Shown: positions 55,588 to 59,276, numbered from the stretch's first letter. The stretch: 64,000 nt of DNA from Candidatus Binataceae bacterium (GCA_035493515.1 DATJID010000035.1:43422-107421), one strand, 5' to 3'. The notes: generated by a model not told the origin, from the letters alone. Translations and numbers: made by a program.

Positions 55588-56412
55588 TCAGCGCGCCACG
55601 CGCGTCATGAACGTCTCGGCCTCGCGGATGAACTCGCGTTGGTCCGCGTAGCGGCCGAGATCCAGGATGAAGTATGTCGCGCCTGCCTCACGCTCGGTTT
55701 CCAGCCGGGCGCGCGCCGCTCCGACATCCTCGAGCTTGAGCCCGCGGCGCACCACGATTTCGGGCTCGGCGCGGCCGCGTGCGCGAGCCTGCTCGCGTAG
55801 CGCCGCCACGGCTGGAGCGAGCTTTTCCGCCGTCAGCATCGGATGCCATCCGTCACCGAACTCCAGCACGCGCGCTACTGCGTTGTCGCCGTTGCCGCCG
55901 ATCCAGATCGGCGGCCGCGGCGGCCGCGGCAGGAACACGATCGGCGCAAAGCGTACCAGCGCGCCATCGTAAGAGGCGACGTCGCTGGCGAACAATTGAT
56001 GCAACACCCGGAGCGTCTCCGTGGTCAACGCGCCGCGCTCTTTGGAATCGACGCCCAGCGCCTCGAACTCGCGCCGCAGCCAGCCGACACCCGTTGCGAG
56101 GATCATGCGGCCGCCCGACAATTCCTGAATCGTGGCAACCTGCTTGGCGGTAAGCACCGCCGGACGATATGGCAGCACGAGCACCGATACACCGAGGCGG
56201 ATTCGCTCGGTTGCGCCGGCGAGGAACGCGAGCGTCGCAAGCACGTCGAGATAGCGCCCGCCTGAGCCCTCGACGTCATCGGGCGGGAGCGCCAGGTGAT
56301 CGGAGACGAAGACCGCATCGAAGCCGAGTTGCTCGGCCGCGCGAGCGCAGGCAACTATCGTGTCACGAGTCGATTGCGGTCCCATGTTGCGGATCGCGAT
56401 TCCAAACTTCAT
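55588..56412 (-). CDS. LLM-class (luciferase-like) flavin/F420-dependent oxidoreductase
   Basis: MKFGIAIRNMG...FDAVFVSDHL TIM-barrel LLM signature; 274 aa. The cofactor (F420 vs FMN) cannot be decided from sequence here. Confidence 0.7.
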   Translation of the reverse strand: MKFGIAIRNMGPQSTRDTIVACARAAEQLGFDAVFVSDHLALPPDDVEGSGGRYLDVLATLAFLAGATERIRLGVSVLVLPYRPAVLTAKQVATIQELSGGRMILATGVGWLRREFEALGVDSKERGALTTETLRVLHQLFASDVASYDGALVRFAPIVFLPRPPRPPIWIGGNGDNAVARVLEFGDGWHPMLTAEKLAPAVAALREQARARGRAEPEIVVRRGLKLEDVGAARARLETEREAGATYFILDLGRYADQREFIREAETFMTRVAR

Positions 56413-56422
56413 CGCCGGATCC

Positions 56423-58099
56423 CTATTTCACTGCCTTGAGTTTGCGCCGGCCCGGCCGCTCGGCAACCAGGCGGCGCGCGGCCGCGCCGAGCGTGCCCGC
56501 GCGATGCCATCGGCTGTACTGTTCCAGCGTCAATCCACGCGCCGCCTCCAGCGCGACGGATAGCGCGGCGAGCACGCACACTTCGGCCAGCACACTTATC
56601 CTGGGCGCGAGACCGAGGACGCCGCCTTCCTGCTCGACCGGCGCATTAATCACCAGGTCGGCAAGCTGGGAAAGTTCGGAGGCCGAATTACCGGTGACCG
56701 CGATCAGTTGCGCGCCGTGCTCCTTGATCGCCATCGTGGCCTCGCACAACTCCCGCGTATTGCCGCTGTTGGAGATGGCGATCACGACGTCTTTCGGATC
56801 GACCTGGCCCAGGCTGCCGTGCAAAGTTTCGGTAGCGTGCAAGAAGGTCGCCTGCGTACCCACCGAACAGAGCAGGCTCGCGGCGTAGCGCGCGACGTGT
56901 TCGGGCTTGCCCACGCCGGTCAGATGAACGAGGCCGCCGCGCGCCTCGGCGGTGCGAATCATGTCGACCGCGGCTCGAATCTGGTTGAGGTCGATCTCGC
57001 GGCGCAGCGTTCCCAGCTCGCTCAAGCACAATTCCATGAAGCGGCTGACCTCGACCGAGGGGTCGAGCGGACCGCTCGCCTGCGGCAGCGGTTCCATCGC
57101 CGGCAGCGCCTGATCGGGCATCGCTTCGCCAAAGAGCGCGAGCACTTCGTTGCGCTCCTCCAAGCCCGATGGAAATGCGCCCAGCCGTCCCACGCAAACC
57201 GCGCCCGCCGCATTGGCGAGCGTTCCGATCGCGTGCCACGGCAGGCTCCATCGAAGTCCCGCGATCATCGCGCCCATGAATGCGTCGCCCGCGCCGGTCG
57301 TATCGACCACTTTGACCGCGAACGCCGGCAGCTTGAGCGCGGTCCCGCCGGCGGCGGCGATCGCGCATCCGCGCTCGCCGTCGGTGACGACCACGGCCTG
57401 GCTCTGGTAGCGTGCGCGCATCGCCTGGGCAAGCTTCAAAGTGTCGCGGCCCGCGCCCATCAAGGCTCGCGCTGCGCAACGGGCAGGCTTGAGAATCGTC
57501 GCCAGCCGAAGCGCGCGCTCCAGTTCGGCGCGAGTGCCGAGCGCGGGACACGCGTCGGCGGGGGGTAAATCGACGTCGAGCACGGTCGGGATTGAGTTGG
57601 CGCGGGCGAACAGCAGCAGGGCGATGACGGTGCGCAGGGGAAGCTGCGAGATTTCGGTCGAGATCATGCGCGCCCGACCGATGAAACCTGCGTGGCGCCG
57701 GCGAATCTCGTCGGGCGCAAGTTCGGCAGTAGCTCCACGCGCCATGTAGATTGCGCGGCCGCCGCGCGCGTCGACGAAAATCTTGGCGAACGAGCTGGCC
57801 GAGCCGTCGGTGGTCAGGTGATGGCGAATGCCCAGCTGATCCATCGCGCGGCACAGGAACTCGCCGTTGCGGTCGGTGCCGATTTTGCCGAACGCGCCGA
57901 CCTCGAGTCCCAACACGCGCGCCCATCCGAGATGATTCAGAACCAGGCCGCCGGCCGCCGCTCGCTCCATCCGGCCGCCGGCGCCATGATGCGCGTGGAG
58001 CGCGATTTTCTGATCGGCGCGGACGAACTTCGGCGTGCGGTAGAACAAATCCACCACCATGCTGCCGCAGCCGGCGAGGTCGAGTTTCGCCTCAGCCAT
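56423..58099 (-). CDS. bifunctional PfkB-family sugar kinase (N-term) :: SIS-domain sugar-phosphate isomerase (C-term) fusion
   Basis: PfkB motifs (GGRMERAAAGG..., DTTGAGDAFMGAMIAGL), then an SIS domain (VHLTGVGKPEHVARY...VVIAISNSGNTRE). Overlaps the upstream aldolase gene by 8 nt. Confidence 0.75.
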   Translation of the reverse strand: MAEAKLDLAGCGSMVVDLFYRTPKFVRADQKIALHAHHGAGGRMERAAAGGLVLNHLGWARVLGLEVGAFGKIGTDRNGEFLCRAMDQLGIRHHLTTDGSASSFAKIFVDARGGRAIYMARGATAELAPDEIRRRHAGFIGRARMISTEISQLPLRTVIALLLFARANSIPTVLDVDLPPADACPALGTRAELERALRLATILKPARCAARALMGAGRDTLKLAQAMRARYQSQAVVVTDGERGCAIAAAGGTALKLPAFAVKVVDTTGAGDAFMGAMIAGLRWSLPWHAIGTLANAAGAVCVGRLGAFPSGLEERNEVLALFGEAMPDQALPAMEPLPQASGPLDPSVEVSRFMELCLSELGTLRREIDLNQIRAAVDMIRTAEARGGLVHLTGVGKPEHVARYAASLLCSVGTQATFLHATETLHGSLGQVDPKDVVIAISNSGNTRELCEATMAIKEHGAQLIAVTGNSASELSQLADLVINAPVEQEGGVLGLAPRISVLAEVCVLAALSVALEAARGLTLEQYSRWHRAGTLGAAARRLVAERPGRRKLKAVK

Positions 58100-59276
58100 C
58101 CTTCAGCGCGCGTCTCGCCTGCGGGCGCTCCGCGTCGGCCTCGCTGAGCCATCCGGGCTCGAGCAGGGCGGCCGCGCGCCGGCGCAGGGCTTTGAAACGG
58201 CGGGCGAACTCGCGCCGCTCGCCGTTGCTGAACGCAGGCGTTCCCGGTGCCAGCGCTTCACTGCGGCACACGCCCATCTCGACCAGCGCCGCCTTGAGGC
58301 AGGCGAGGGTGGGGCGGAAGCTCCGGCCGCCACGGTTGAACTCACACGCGGCGCGGAACTCCTCAAGCACCTGCGAGTAGCGATGCATCAGGGCGCCGTC
58401 GCCGTTGCGGCACACGCGGAGAGCCCGCTGCCACTCGCGCGGCATCGCATTGCTCGGCCCCGCGACGATTCCGTAGGGCAGCGAATCGCGCGTCCAGTAA
58501 CGGTTCCAGTAATGCCGGGTCCATCCGCGCGCGCCTGCGGGCGGCGCGAACAGATCGAAGATGAGGTATGGATCGCCGGCGTAGATTGCGAAATCGCCGC
58601 CGCGGTTGAAGTGCGACGCCGCGCGCGTATAGTTGCCCAGCACCGCCTTGCCCGCCGTGACCTTGACCCCGCGCACATACTCCATCCGGCTCATCTGCTT
58701 TACATCGCGCGTATGCATATGGGGCGCGTGGCCAGGCGCTGAAATCTCTGCGTTATCGTAGAGGAAAACCGGGATGCGCCGCCGGGCGCGCTCGAATAGT
58801 GCGTTGATCTCGCGATTGACGAAGCCGACTGGATCCTCCGAGTCGCGAATCGAAAGCGGCGCGACCACTACAGCCTCGGCGTCGAGGTCCAGCGCATATT
58901 CGAGATTCTCCAGCGTCTCGTTACGCGTATGGCCGGTGATGCCGACCCACGCTTCAACCGCGGCCTCTGCCTCGCCAATGCGGCGGCATTCGTCAACCAC
59001 CACGCGTGCGATTTGCTGGCGGCGCGGATTATCGAGTTTGTCCCACTCGCCGGTGGTGCCGGCGGCGAAGATGATGTTCGCGCCGTTGCCGTTCTGCACC
59101 GCCCAGCGCACGACCGCGCGCTGTTCGTCCTCGAGCACCTCGCCGGCGCGGTCGAGGATAGTCACGACCGGCACCGACAGACCCGCGTTGGGCACGTAGC
59201 GACGCGCCTCAGGCTCGCCCGCGTGGCGTGCCGTTTGCCGCCGTCCGACAAGTTTCAGTGGCCGTTTGTTCGTCAT
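58092..59276 (-). CDS. DHDPS/N-acetylneuraminate-lyase family class I aldolase with ~100 aa C-terminal extension
   Basis: VPVVTILDRAGEVLEDEQRAVVRWAVQNGNGANIIFAAGTTGEW DapA-family N-terminus; putative Schiff-base Lys in GVKVTAGKA. Confidence 0.65.
   Translation of the reverse strand: MTNKRPLKLVGRRQTARHAGEPEARRYVPNAGLSVPVVTILDRAGEVLEDEQRAVVRWAVQNGNGANIIFAAGTTGEWDKLDNPRRQQIARVVVDECRRIGEAEAAVEAWVGITGHTRNETLENLEYALDLDAEAVVVAPLSIRDSEDPVGFVNREINALFERARRRIPVFLYDNAEISAPGHAPHMHTRDVKQMSRMEYVRGVKVTAGKAVLGNYTRAASHFNRGGDFAIYAGDPYLIFDLFAPPAGARGWTRHYWNRYWTRDSLPYGIVAGPSNAMPREWQRALRVCRNGDGALMHRYSQVLEEFRAACEFNRGGRSFRPTLACLKAALVEMGVCRSEALAPGTPAFSNGERREFARRFKALRRRAAALLEPGWLSEADAERPQARRALKDG

What the first reader, a model, noticed from the sequence alone, without database searches (positions are those of the whole stretch)
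55588..59276. Operon of DHDPS/NAL-family aldolase, PfkB-kinase::SIS-isomerase fusion and LLM (F420-type) oxidoreductase: candidate unconventional sugar-acid/keto-deoxy-sugar route
Three overlapping or adjacent minus-strand genes.

The aldolase (58092..59276) has the DapA/NanA-family N-terminus. That family includes KDG/KDPG aldolases of semi-phosphorylative Entner-Doudoroff variants.

The middle gene fuses a PfkB carbohydrate kinase (KdgK / sulfofructose-kinase-like) to an SIS aldose-ketose isomerase domain (KpsF/GutQ/GmhA-like). I do not know this fusion from characterised pathways.

The third gene is a luciferase-like (possibly F420-dependent) oxidoreductase.

Isomerase, kinase, aldolase and reductase are the logic of EMP-like sulfo-sugar and sugar-acid degradation pathways. 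But the enzyme families used here (SIS, PfkB, DHDPS-like, LLM) make an unusual combination, so this may be a new variant pathway.

A family-III CoA-transferase converges on it from the plus strand.
Basis: inference. Interest (0 to 1): 0.65.

Follow-up and report, generated by a model that had tools for sequence, protein, structure and literature searches.

The report
Aldolase plus kinase-isomerase sugar module
An uncultured soil bacterium (Binataceae) carries a conserved, uncharacterised gene pair, a very divergent pyruvate-type aldolase and a sugar kinase fused to an arabinose-5-phosphate-type isomerase, which probably links an eight-carbon sugar acid such as KDO to the pentose phosphate pathway; the neighbouring F420-type oxidoreductase is only a recent neighbour.

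Summary
Three minus-strand genes sit at the stated coordinates: a DHDPS-like protein, a PfkB::SIS fusion and an LLM oxidoreductase.

- **The fusion is real.** More than 100 independent protein clusters (66-96% identity) keep it intact, so it is not a frameshift artefact.
- **The conserved unit is aldolase plus PfkB::SIS.** The two genes overlap by 1-8 bp in every pair read, from Binataceae to a Planctomycetota MAG. About 20 proteins fuse all three domains, and others fuse aldolase directly to SIS.
- **The LLM is not part of that unit.** It is adjacent only in the closest relatives (10 of 11) and absent at 62-66% identity.
- **The SIS domain** keeps all five KdsD arabinose-5-phosphate-isomerase residues and lacks CBS domains.
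- **The aldolase** keeps the Schiff-base Lys, the Tyr and the GTTGE motif, but it is no known subfamily.
- **The kinase** is a derived ribokinase relative that has lost the NXXE motif. It shares this signature with PfkB::SIS fusions in protists and a cnidarian.

Best reading (confidence about 0.4): a KDO-type ulosonate is interconverted with pyruvate plus D-arabinose(-5-P), which connects to ribulose-5-P. The direction is unresolved.

No sulfo-sugar link or F420 biosynthesis genes were found. I rate it an uncharacterised variant built from known enzyme families, of moderate interest.

The parts
58092..59276 (-). DHDPS/NAL-superfamily class I aldolase-like protein (394 aa), a deeply divergent subfamily
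   Evidence: - PF00701 scores 38 bits, N-terminal part only. It is far below the dapA, nanA, KdgD and KDG-aldolase cut-offs.
- The AF2 model has pLDDT 84. Foldseek's best hit is C. glutamicum NAL 5c54 (TMt 0.85, 17% identity), with DapA, YagE and NanA about equal.
- T74/T75 (GTTGE), Y173 (LYDN) and K205 (GVKVT) align with DapA T44/T45, Y133 and K161.
- It lies directly upstream of PfkB::SIS in L012, L016-L019, L022, L096-L099 and L100, and is fused to it in P0267 and related proteins.
57110..58099 (-). PfkB kinase domain of the fusion (aa about 1-330), a derived ribokinase-like subfamily
   Evidence: - PF00294, E 1e-36. The best NCBIfam hit is ribokinase (113 bits, cut-off 300), then IolC (95 bits). 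The best PDB hits are ribokinases.
- Kept: D17, N55, and DTTGAGD with D272.
- Changed relative to E. coli ribokinase: N14 to V, K43 to L, and the NXXE motif lost (KPARCAA).
56423..57019 (-). KpsF/KdsD-type SIS sugar-phosphate isomerase domain of the fusion (aa about 361-558), no CBS pair
   Evidence: - PF01380, E 1.9e-18. TIGR00393 (kpsF) scores 119 bits against a cut-off of 204.
- Best PDB hits: 5uqi (a single-domain phosphosugar isomerase), 3etn, and 2xhz (E. coli API).
- K398, H427, E450, E491 and H532 align with KdsD K59, H88, E111, E152 and H193.
55588..56412 (-). LLM-class oxidoreductase (274 aa), TIGR03619 'F420_Rv2161c' family; a lineage-specific downstream neighbour, not part of the conserved core
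   Evidence: - TIGR03619 scores 228 bits against a cut-off of 167. There is no close solved structure.
- It is adjacent in L001-L010 and L100, degraded in L011, and absent after the fusion in L012, L016, L018, L096, L097 and L101-L104.
59367..60224 (-). Hypothetical lipoprotein-like gene upstream, conserved only within Binataceae; membership in the unit is uncertain
   Evidence: - No Pfam or NCBIfam hit.
- It has a signal-like N-terminus with AVAGC.
- Its C-terminal roughly 130 aa are conserved upstream of the aldolase in L001-L012, L016 and L018.
- A T-run follows its stop codon.

Best explanation
**The functional unit.** It is the translationally coupled pair DHDPS-like aldolase plus PfkB::SIS.

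**The three activities.**
- The SIS domain is an arabinose-5-phosphate/ribulose-5-phosphate isomerase. The active-site residues are shown; the activity is inferred.
- The PfkB domain is an ATP-dependent kinase of a derived ribokinase-like subfamily. It supplies the phosphorylated sugar, most simply D-arabinose to D-arabinose-5-P (inferred).
- The DHDPS-like protein is a Schiff-base, pyruvate-type aldolase. It interconverts a 3-deoxy-2-ulosonic acid with pyruvate plus that pentose or pentose-5-P. The only common natural candidate is KDO or KDO-8-P (inferred).

**Net reaction in the favoured reading (salvage/catabolism).** KDO gives pyruvate plus D-arabinose. D-arabinose is phosphorylated to A5P, which is isomerised to Ru5P and enters the pentose phosphate pathway. 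The gene and domain order (aldolase, kinase, isomerase) is the reaction order.

**The LLM.** The LLM oxidoreductase was added downstream in one genus-level lineage. It is probably co-transcribed there, but it is not part of the conserved chemistry.
For: **Module.**
- The aldolase lies immediately upstream of the fusion, overlapping it by 1-8 bp, in the gene-called Binataceae loci (62-97% identity), in loci at 44-50% identity and in a Planctomycetota MAG. tblastn places it just upstream in L016-L019 and L022 as well.
- Seventeen triple fusions with an intact catalytic triad, plus three with a degenerate aldolase domain, and aldolase::SIS fusions exist.

**Isomerase.**
- All five KdsD residues are kept and are near-invariant in 26 diverse fusions.
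- The window also encodes a normal RpiA (2001-2690), so the SIS domain is not needed for ribose-5-P isomerisation.

**Aldolase.**
- The K/Y/TT triad is kept and the fold is DHDPS/NAL.
- An engineered E. coli NAL crystallised as an 'L-KDO aldolase' (3lcw) is among the fold matches. This shows that the fold accepts arabinose plus pyruvate.

**Kinase acts on a free pentose.**
- Standalone cousins (36-38% identity, same derived motifs) sit next to nucleoside hydrolases and Q_salvage, and to sugar transporters.
- An independent canonical ribokinase::SIS fusion lies next to, or within 3.3 kb of, GH172 in 2 of 2 contexts. GH172 is the exo-alpha-D-arabinofuranosidase family (PMC10509167, PMC10115798).

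**Catabolic analogue.** Firmicute plasmids carry BglG, a PTS, a KpsF-like SIS (45-48% identity), a DHDPS-family gene and Eda.

**Source of substrate.** The organism has LptE, so it has LPS and therefore KDO.
Against: - No transporter, regulator, glycosidase or riboswitch accompanies the module in group A. The neighbours are housekeeping or envelope genes, which fits a constitutive or anabolic role as well.
- Aldolase::SIS fusions without a kinase (P0442 and relatives, with no PfkB within 10 kb) suggest that aldolase and isomerase are consecutive. That would mean the aldolase handles A5P/KDO-8-P rather than free arabinose.
- The kinase lacks ribokinase N14 and K43 and the NXXE motif. Its second-best family is IolC, a keto-deoxy-acid kinase, so a sugar-acid substrate is possible.
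- The GH172 evidence comes from a different kinase subfamily.
- Some triple fusions have lost the aldolase Lys and Tyr.
- The substrate of the aldolase is pure inference. All curated equivalog cut-offs fail.
- No enzyme of this family has been assayed, as far as two full-text searches and the source annotations show.
Confidence: 0.4

Rival explanations
1. Anabolic reading. The SIS domain makes A5P from Ru5P. The DHDPS-like enzyme condenses A5P with pyruvate to give KDO-8-P or a related ulosonate for the cell envelope. This would be a PEP-independent analogue of KdsD plus KdsA. The kinase feeds in salvaged D-arabinose.
For: - Aldolase::SIS fusions without a kinase exist, with no PfkB gene nearby.
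- No catabolic regulator or transporter is present.
- The module sits beside rpmE-prfA-prmC-murA in Binataceae.
- In another lineage it sits beside ftsA/ftsZ/amiC, an M23 peptidase, an RmlD-like reductase, a Polysacc_synt_3 flippase and a TMEM260-like GT-C.
- The organism makes LPS (LptE).
Against: - Pyruvate aldolases of the NAL type are normally catabolic, and condensation is thermodynamically weak compared with PEP-driven KdsA (established knowledge).
- A kinase has no place in KDO biosynthesis.
- PfkB::SIS occurs in eukaryotes without LPS.
- The firmicute analogue is clearly catabolic, being PTS-linked.
- Whether these genomes lack kdsA or kdsD could not be tested.
Confidence: 0.2
2. Same three-step logic but a different sugar. 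The SIS domain isomerises another sugar phosphate (hexose-6-P, heptose-7-P or tetrose-4-P). The aldolase then acts on a different keto-deoxy acid (KDN, sialic-like, KDG/KDPG-like or DAH(P)-like).
For: - All curated KdsD, GutQ and kpsF cut-offs are missed (119 against 204 bits).
- Weaker hits to HxlB and GmhA exist.
- The kinase sugar site differs from that of ribokinase.
- The aldolase is equidistant from NAL, DapA and YagE.
- The firmicute operon also carries an Eda-type KDPG aldolase.
Against: - The complete KdsD catalytic set is conserved.
- The nearest solved structures are API-type single-SIS proteins.
- The HxlB and GmhA scores are much lower (49 and 33 bits).
Confidence: 0.2
3. A four-step EMP-like route for a sulfo-sugar or sugar acid, in which the F420-type LLM is the integral reductase.
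For: - The LLM starts 10 nt after the fusion on the same strand.
- It is adjacent in 10 of 11 close relatives.
- It passes the TIGR03619 cut-off.
Against: - The LLM is absent next to the module in all relatives at 66% identity or below, and in other phyla. It is degraded in L011.
- No sulfo-sugar enzyme families are present; the sulfofructose kinase hit is weaker than the ribokinase hits.
- No F420 biosynthesis gene was seen in the window.
Confidence: 0.07
4. The proteins are not a metabolic route. The SIS and aldolase folds would serve a regulatory or structural role, for example with A5P as a signal, or the adjacency is inherited synteny without shared function.
For: - Subclades have a catalytically dead aldolase domain but keep the fused architecture.
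- The context is housekeeping.
Against: - The catalytic residues of all three domains are conserved in the window protein and in most relatives.
- Repeated fusion events in several architectures argue for functional coupling.
Confidence: 0.06

Closest known systems
KdsD / KpsF / GutQ arabinose-5-phosphate isomerases, especially the single-SIS forms without CBS (PDB 5uqi, 3etn, 2xhz)
   Same: - SIS fold.
- K59, H88, E111, E152 and H193 equivalents are all present.
- 33-48% identity to single-domain relatives.
   Different: - No CBS pair.
- Fused to a kinase.
- Below the curated family cut-offs.
- Not in an LPS or capsule gene cluster.
Ribokinase (RbsK) and the PfkB sugar kinases (IolC, KdgK, sulfofructose kinase)
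   Same: - PfkB fold.
- DTTGAGD anion hole and catalytic Asp.
- D16 and N46 equivalents.
- The full-length alignment is best to ribokinase.
   Different: - N14, K43 and the NXXE motif are replaced.
- New invariant motifs: LNHL, GERAIYMA, STEISQLPL, LDVDxPP and KPxxxAA.
- C-terminal isomerase fusion.
N-acetylneuraminate lyase / DapA / YagE / KD(P)G aldolase (DHDPS-NAL superfamily); by function, the historical KDO aldolase activity EC 4.1.2.23 (from my memory, Ghalambor and Heath 1966; I believe no gene is assigned)
   Same: - (beta/alpha)8 barrel.
- Schiff-base Lys, Tyr and the GTTGE motif.
   Different: - Only 14-21% identity to solved members.
- About 90 extra residues: N- and C-terminal tails plus an insertion after beta-5 that carries a conserved H-x-[HR]-T-x-[DE]-x-K motif.
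- Fails every curated equivalog.
- The DapA R138 position is not conserved.
Kinase-first D-arabinose route, D-arabinokinase EC 2.7.1.54 plus phosphoarabinoisomerase EC 5.3.1.13, described in Propionibacterium pentosaceum (from my memory, Volk about 1960-62)
   Same: The proposed kinase-then-isomerase order D-arabinose to A5P to Ru5P. It contrasts with the isomerase-then-kinase order inferred for the Microbacterium D-arabinan PUL (PMC10509167).
   Different: - No sequence is known to me for that kinase, so homology cannot be tested.
- Here the two activities would be in one polypeptide and coupled to an aldolase.
GmhA + HldA/HldE (SIS isomerase + PfkB kinase of ADP-heptose synthesis)
   Same: The same two superfamilies act on one sugar phosphate.
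   Different: - The scores are far below cut-off: rfaE_dom_I 73 against 345 (partial), GmhA 33 against 320.
- No nucleotidyltransferase or phosphatase partner.
- The SIS site is KdsD-type.
Firmicute plasmid operon BglG - PTS(IIA/IIB/IIC, ascorbate family) - SIS - 'dapA' - Eda (E. faecium, C. difficile; uncharacterised as far as one full-text search shows)
   Same: A phosphorylating step, a KpsF-like single SIS (45-48% identity) and a DHDPS-family enzyme lie side by side.
   Different: - A PTS replaces the kinase.
- The DHDPS-family protein is a conventional 300-aa form, only 21% identical.
- An extra Eda aldolase is present.

Membership tests
DHDPS/NAL superfamily (PF00701) | Pfam gathering score and the (beta/alpha)8 barrel fold | tested here: met
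   38.3 bits against a cut-off of 22.1, although only aa 31-147 match. The AF2 model gives Foldseek TMt 0.80-0.87 to NAL and DapA structures.
DHDPS/NAL superfamily (PF00701) | Schiff-base Lys on beta-6, catalytic Tyr, and the GxTGE Thr pair | tested here: met
   K205, Y173 and T74/T75 align with DapA K161, Y133 and T44/T45. They are conserved in diverse relatives, apart from a degenerate subclade and a variable second Thr position (T, S or N).
DapA (4-hydroxy-tetrahydrodipicolinate synthase) | TIGR00674 equivalog cut-off; Arg138 for aspartate-semialdehyde binding | tested here: not met
   28.6 bits against a cut-off of 206. The R138 position aligns with a non-conserved His or an insertion.
N-acetylneuraminate lyase / KDG aldolase / KdgD | Curated equivalog scores | tested here: not met
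   No nanA hit. Arch_KDGaldase scores 16.6 against 390 and KdgD 22 against 374.
PfkB carbohydrate kinases (PF00294) | Pfam score; the DTxGAGD motif with the catalytic Asp | tested here: met
   127 bits against a cut-off of 25.8. D266-T-T-G-A-G-D272 is invariant.
PfkB carbohydrate kinases (PF00294) | NXXE motif (Mg/phosphate site) | tested here: not met
   The motif aligns to KPARCAA. It is lost in all group A and B fusions and kept in group C (PNETEA).
Ribokinase (RbsK) | TIGR02152 cut-off; ribose ligands N14, D16, K43, N46, E143, D255 | tested here: not met
   113.5 bits against a cut-off of 299.65. D16, N46 and D255 are kept; N14 is V, K43 is L, and E143 is ambiguous.
KdsD/KpsF/GutQ arabinose-5-phosphate isomerase | Catalytic and binding residues K59, H88, E111, E152, H193 (list from memory of E. 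coli KdsD mutagenesis and structure work) | tested here: met
   K398, H427, E450, E491 and H532 align with these positions in 2xhz and 5uqi.
KdsD/KpsF/GutQ arabinose-5-phosphate isomerase | Curated family score; SIS plus tandem CBS architecture | tested here: not met
   kpsF scores 118.9 against 203.7, KdsD 109.5 against 505 and GutQ 109.7 against 481. Only model positions 3-151 of 268 match, and there is no CBS pair.
KdsD/KpsF/GutQ arabinose-5-phosphate isomerase | A5P/Ru5P isomerase activity | not testable with these tools
   Needs an enzyme assay or complementation of E. coli delta-kdsD delta-gutQ.
F420-dependent LLM oxidoreductases (TIGR03619, Rv2161c family) | Curated subfamily score | tested here: met
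   228.2 bits against a cut-off of 166.9.
F420-dependent LLM oxidoreductases (TIGR03619, Rv2161c family) | The organism makes F420 (cofC/D/E/G/H or fbiC present) | tested here: inconclusive
   None was seen among the window ORFs scanned. Only 64 kb of the genome is visible.
Sulfo-EMP (YihS/V/T/U-type) sulfoquinovose pathway | Sulfofructose kinase, SFP aldolase, SLA reductase and SQ isomerase families | tested here: not met
   The only link is a weak PfkB-level similarity to sulfofructose kinase (47-49 bits, below the ribokinase hits). No YihS, YihT or YihU families are present.

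The most novel reading that the evidence does not exclude
The DHDPS-like protein and the PfkB::SIS fusion may be the missing genes for two activities that I believe are orphan.

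- KDO aldolase (EC 4.1.2.23).
- D-arabinose 5-kinase (EC 2.7.1.54).

Together they would define a KDO/D-arabinose salvage route. Alternatively they would define a PEP-independent KDO-8-P synthase. The kinase-isomerase half is shared with diverse eukaryotes, which have been said to lack API homologues (PMC11301363).
Probability: 0.3. Interest if true: 0.7.

Novelty: new variant of a known kind. Interest (0 to 1): 0.55.

Why it matters
- **KDO recycling.** KDO is made by nearly all Gram-negative bacteria and by plants, yet no gene-level route for its breakdown or recycling is established, to my knowledge. A conserved aldolase/kinase/A5P-isomerase module is a concrete, testable candidate.
- **Eukaryotic A5P.** The derived PfkB::API fusion family also occurs in protists and a cnidarian. 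That bears on how eukaryotes make or use D-arabinose-5-phosphate, which a 2024 paper left to a GFAT side activity.
- **New subfamilies.** It defines a new deep branch of the DHDPS/NAL superfamily and a PfkB subfamily without the NXXE motif. Both are currently annotated only generically.
- **A caution.** The finding shows that the adjacent F420-type LLM should not be read into the pathway.

Tried and rejected
- **Frameshift artefact: rejected.** The fusion is intact in more than 100 clusters.
- **Heptose (GmhA/HldE) orthology: rejected** on scores.
- **Fructoselysine FrlD/FrlB and MurQ-type SIS: considered from memory and dropped.** The SIS domain is a single KdsD-type domain.
- **5-deoxyribose/DHAP-shunt idea.** It was prompted by neighbouring radical SAM genes and by MtnP/MtnA in other lineages. 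I dropped it because SIS and DHDPS chemistry do not fit 1-phospho-deoxypentoses. The radical SAM proteins are generic B12-binding types below all cut-offs.
- **Searches that found nothing useful.**
  - Riboswitch search: nothing.
  - Plasmid tblastn: no fusion and no DHDPS-like homologue.
  - Literature searches for the fusion, a KDO aldolase gene, or the firmicute operon: nothing relevant.
  - The Binatota genome paper has no mention of F420, KDO or pentose.
- **Searches that under-delivered.**
  - The genome-contig scan with a single protein returned only close relatives.
  - The metagenome scan used generic PfkB patterns and returned mostly ordinary kinases.
- **GH172 evidence downgraded.** Transferring it from group C to the window protein is not justified, because the kinase motifs differ.

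Full report
**1. Observation.**

The three minus-strand ORFs exist exactly as described: 55588-56412, 56423-58099 and 58092-59276. The Pfam and NCBIfam calls are as follows.
- The 274-aa protein is a luciferase-like oxidoreductase. It passes the curated cut-off of TIGR03619, the 'F420_Rv2161c' family (228 against 167 bits).
- The 558-aa protein has a PfkB domain (aa 48-309, E 1e-36) and a single SIS domain (aa 393-513, E 1.9e-18).
- The 394-aa protein matches PF00701 weakly, and only over its first third (38 bits).

The aldolase stop overlaps the fusion start by 8 bp (ATGGCTGA). The LLM starts 10 nt after the fusion stop. A family-III CoA-transferase converges from the plus strand.

The source is a Candidatus Binataceae (Binatota) genome, judging from the names attached to near-identical proteins and loci. 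In a 91%-identical relative with gene calls the layout is hisA-hisB-hisD-murA-prmC-prfA-rpmE on one strand. Divergent from these come a hypothetical lipoprotein, the aldolase, the fusion and the LLM, followed by the convergent CoA-transferase, an FHA protein and a Ser/Thr kinase.

**2. The fusion is real, and the LLM is peripheral.**

The PfkB::SIS protein is intact in more than 100 clusters at 66-96% identity from independent assemblies. tblastn of the window proteins against the fetched loci, together with gene calls from look-ups, gives the following picture.
- **Close relatives (83-97% identity, L001-L011).** They keep lipoprotein, aldolase, fusion, LLM and convergent CoA-transferase. The LLM is degraded in L011.
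- **Binataceae at 62-66% identity (L012, L016, L018).** They keep lipoprotein-like gene, aldolase and fusion but have no LLM after it. L017 ends too early to tell.
- **Loci at 44-53% identity.** L019, L022, L096 and L097/L098 keep the aldolase directly upstream. Where genes are called, the overlap is 1-4 bp.
- **A Planctomycetota MAG (L099, about 39% identity to the window fusion).** It also keeps the aldolase directly upstream.
- **One Pseudomonadota MAG (L014/L015).** It has the fusion without the aldolase.

So the conserved unit is aldolase plus PfkB::SIS. The LLM is a genus-level addition.

**3. Rosetta-stone evidence.**

An exhaustive HMMER search of 1.84 billion representatives found full-length PfkB::SIS proteins down to about 26-30% identity, and two proteins of 861 and 895 aa.
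- P0267 (895 aa) is DHDPS + PfkB + SIS. Its N-terminal 370 aa are 35% identical to the window aldolase over its whole length.
- A search with P0267 found 17 triple fusions (58-100% identity) and five aldolase::SIS fusions that lack the kinase. All of these keep the aldolase Thr, Tyr and Lys positions.
- A subclade has lost all three residues. It comprises P0263, P0441 and P0445 (triple fusions) and P0336 and P0353 (aldolase::SIS).

**4. The three catalytic units.**

*Isomerase.*
- The best solved relatives are single-SIS phosphosugar isomerases and E. coli arabinose-5-phosphate isomerase (5uqi, 3etn, 2xhz).
- K398, H427, E450, E491 and H532 align with KdsD K59, H88, E111, E152 and H193 (the residue list is from my memory of the KdsD literature).
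- Four of the five are invariant or nearly so in 26 diverse fusions. E491 is invariant in group A and varies in several eukaryotic members.
- There is no CBS pair, and the curated KdsD, GutQ and kpsF cut-offs are not reached.
- The window also encodes an ordinary RpiA.

*Aldolase.*
- Alignment to P. aeruginosa DapA places GTTGE (T74/T75), LYDN (Y173) and GVKVT (K205) on DapA T44/T45, Y133 and K161.
- The AF2 model (pLDDT 84) is a DHDPS/NAL barrel. It is about equally distant (14-21% identity, TMt 0.80-0.87) from C. glutamicum NAL, DapA, YagE and NanA.
- It fails every curated equivalog.
- It carries a family-specific insertion after beta-5 with a conserved H-x-[HR]-T-x-[DE]-x-K motif where DapA has R138. 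This could bind an anionic group. That is inference only.

*Kinase.*
- It is closest to ribokinases. The DTTGAGD motif is kept with the catalytic Asp272, as are the D16 and N46 equivalents.
- N14 is replaced by V, K43 by L, and the NXXE motif is lost.
- New invariant motifs are shared by the bacterial group (A) and a eukaryotic group (B).

**5. Who else has it.**

Cluster look-ups give the following.
- **Group A** comes from MAGs of Binataceae, Pseudomonadota and Planctomycetota.
- **Group B** (575-635 aa, 26-33% identity) is eukaryotic: Amorphochlora, Diaphanoeca, Hydractinia, Cafeteria, Nannochloropsis and Aphanomyces.
- **Group C** (P0305/P0399 and P0340) has a canonical ribokinase domain (GGKGANQA, NPAPA, PNETEA). 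In both contexts obtained it lies near a GH172 glycosidase.
  - In one locus GH172 overlaps the fusion by 4 bp, within a LacI/ABC-transporter cluster.
  - In the other locus GH172 lies 3.3 kb upstream, with LacI, a sugar-binding protein and an MFS transporter nearby.

GH172 contains the exo-alpha-D-arabinofuranosidases that release D-arabinose from mycobacterial arabinan (PMC10509167, PMC10115798). This makes 'D-arabinose to A5P to Ru5P' the natural reading for group C. It is only an analogy for the window protein.

Two further pieces of context bear on the window protein.
- Standalone cousins of the derived kinase (36-38% identity, same motifs) lie next to nucleoside hydrolases and a queuosine-salvage gene, or next to sugar transporters. 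This again points to a free pentose-type substrate.
- On plasmids of E. faecium, E. lactis, E. gilvus and C. difficile, the closest single-domain SIS proteins (43-48% identity) are found. In the two records examined (E. faecium, C. difficile) they sit in an operon of BglG antiterminator, ascorbate-family PTS, SIS, 'dapA' and Eda. This is an independent and clearly catabolic pairing of a phosphorylating step, a KpsF-like isomerase and a DHDPS-family enzyme.

**6. Mechanism.**

Shown:
- Three catalytically competent-looking domains.
- Tight coupling and repeated fusion.
- A KdsD-type active site.

Inferred:
- The phosphosugar is A5P.
- The only common natural 3-deoxy-2-ulosonate built from a D-arabinose skeleton is KDO, so the aldolase most plausibly interconverts KDO(-8-P) with pyruvate plus D-arabinose(-5-P).
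- The organism has LptE, and hence LPS and KDO.

I favour a salvage/catabolic direction: KDO gives pyruvate plus D-arabinose, which goes to A5P and then Ru5P. The reasons are that a kinase is present, that the domain order equals the reaction order, that kinase::isomerase occurs alone in LPS-free eukaryotes, and that the firmicute analogue is PTS-driven.

Against this stand three points.
- The kinase-less aldolase::SIS fusions.
- The lack of any transporter or regulator.
- The housekeeping or envelope neighbourhoods.

These keep an anabolic, KdsD+KdsA-like reading alive. A semi-phosphorylative order (KDO to KDO-8-P to pyruvate plus A5P) is also compatible, since IolC is the second-best kinase family. 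The direction and the exact substrate cannot be settled from sequence.

**7.

The LLM is probably co-transcribed here. However, its shallow phylogenetic association, its loss in L011 and its absence in all distant carriers argue against an integral role. No F420 biosynthesis gene is visible among the window ORFs scanned, though 64 kb cannot decide this. Nothing links the locus to sulfoquinovose.

**8. Novelty.**
- No characterised member of the aldolase subfamily or of the derived PfkB::SIS family turned up in full-text searches.
- The source annotations are generic: 'PfkB family carbohydrate kinase', 'arabinose-5-phosphate isomerase' and 'dihydrodipicolinate synthase family protein'.
- All parts belong to known superfamilies, and the logic (aldolase, kinase, isomerase) is conventional. 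I therefore rate it a new variant of a known kind and of moderate interest.
- The upside is the possible assignment of genes to KDO aldolase and D-arabinokinase activities, and a eukaryotic API-type protein that PMC11301363 states is not obvious in eukaryotes.

**9. Limits.**
- Two fold libraries were unavailable.
- Model coordinates could not be inspected, so the proposed phosphate- or carboxylate-binding motif is untested.

Noticed in passing
P0269, P0280, P0291/P0402, P0303, P0304/P0413/P0414, P0342 (no window coordinates): PfkB::SIS fusions with the same derived kinase motifs and a KdsD-type SIS site occur in eukaryotes: Amorphochlora, Diaphanoeca, Hydractinia, Cafeteria, Nannochloropsis and Aphanomyces. 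A 2024 JBC paper (PMC11301363) states that eukaryotes have no obvious API homologues.
   Followed up: partly
L101:7925-10626 and L103:3049-10683: A canonical ribokinase::SIS fusion (group C) lies next to, or 3.3 kb from, GH172 glycosidases, with LacI regulators and ABC or MFS transporters. This is a candidate kinase-first D-arabinose route for D-arabinan users.
   Followed up: partly
L106:5699-11224 (E. faecium plasmid) and L107:3244-9236 (C. difficile plasmid): A conserved operon runs BglG antiterminator, PTS IIA/IIB/IIC (ascorbate family), single KpsF-like SIS, 'dapA'-annotated DHDPS-family gene, Eda-like aldolase. It appears uncharacterised. The dapA label sits at or barely above the cut-off (207-240 bits against 206).
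   Followed up: partly
P0263, P0441, P0445, P0336, P0353 (L102:2679-5264 for P0263): A subclade of triple and aldolase::SIS fusions has lost the aldolase GTTGE motif, the Tyr and the Schiff-base Lys. It keeps the R-L-R-T..K and GNYLK motifs. The domain looks like a pseudo-enzyme retained in the fusion.
   Followed up: partly
L097:4736-13911, L013:165-8916, L102:1-9541, L104:8927-12609: In one lineage the module is embedded in a conserved block: M23 peptidase, B12-type radical SAM, a 64-74-aa ORF, a second radical SAM, the aldolase/kinase/SIS module, an RmlD-like reductase, (a flippase), DUF3800-like, DUF502 and a TMEM260-like GT-C. The radical SAM genes and the kinase are missing in L104.
   Followed up: partly
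L024:1217-5860, L023:10001-11972, L025:7774-10954: Standalone kinases of the same derived PfkB subfamily (NXXE lost) lie next to two IU-nucleoside hydrolases and a Q_salvage (queuosine salvage) gene, or next to GlcU/RbsU-type and SSF transporters.
   Followed up: partly
window 57485-57505 (aa 199-205 of the fusion): The PfkB NXXE motif, usually conserved in this family, is replaced by K-P-A-R-C-A-A. Two invariant Asp residues in an LDVDxPP motif (aa 174-180) replace ribokinase NPAPA.
   Followed up: partly
window 30411-38689: A lower-GC stretch (0.57-0.59, against about 0.64 elsewhere) encodes two roughly 700-aa proteins with a C-terminal He_PIG Ig-like domain. Two further overlapping ORFs (36551-38644 minus strand, 697 aa; 37145-38689 plus strand, 514 aa) have no Pfam hit.
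   Followed up: no
window 43004-44251 and 54274-55515; 28773-29945: Two family-III CoA-transferases and an acyl-CoA dehydrogenase lie in the same 64 kb. The one converging on the LLM scores best, but below cut-off, against L-carnitine CoA-transferase (277 against 413 bits).
   Followed up: no
L010:6822-9001 and L011:9717-9823: The species-representative L010 shows several frameshifts in both the aldolase and the fusion; these are either assembly errors or pseudogenes. L011 retains only about 35 codons of the LLM.
   Followed up: no
L014:8994-12662: In a Pseudomonadota MAG the fusion has no aldolase partner. It overlaps an upstream O-methyltransferase that is split into two ORFs, and it is followed by a MopE-like copper-binding protein.
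   Followed up: no
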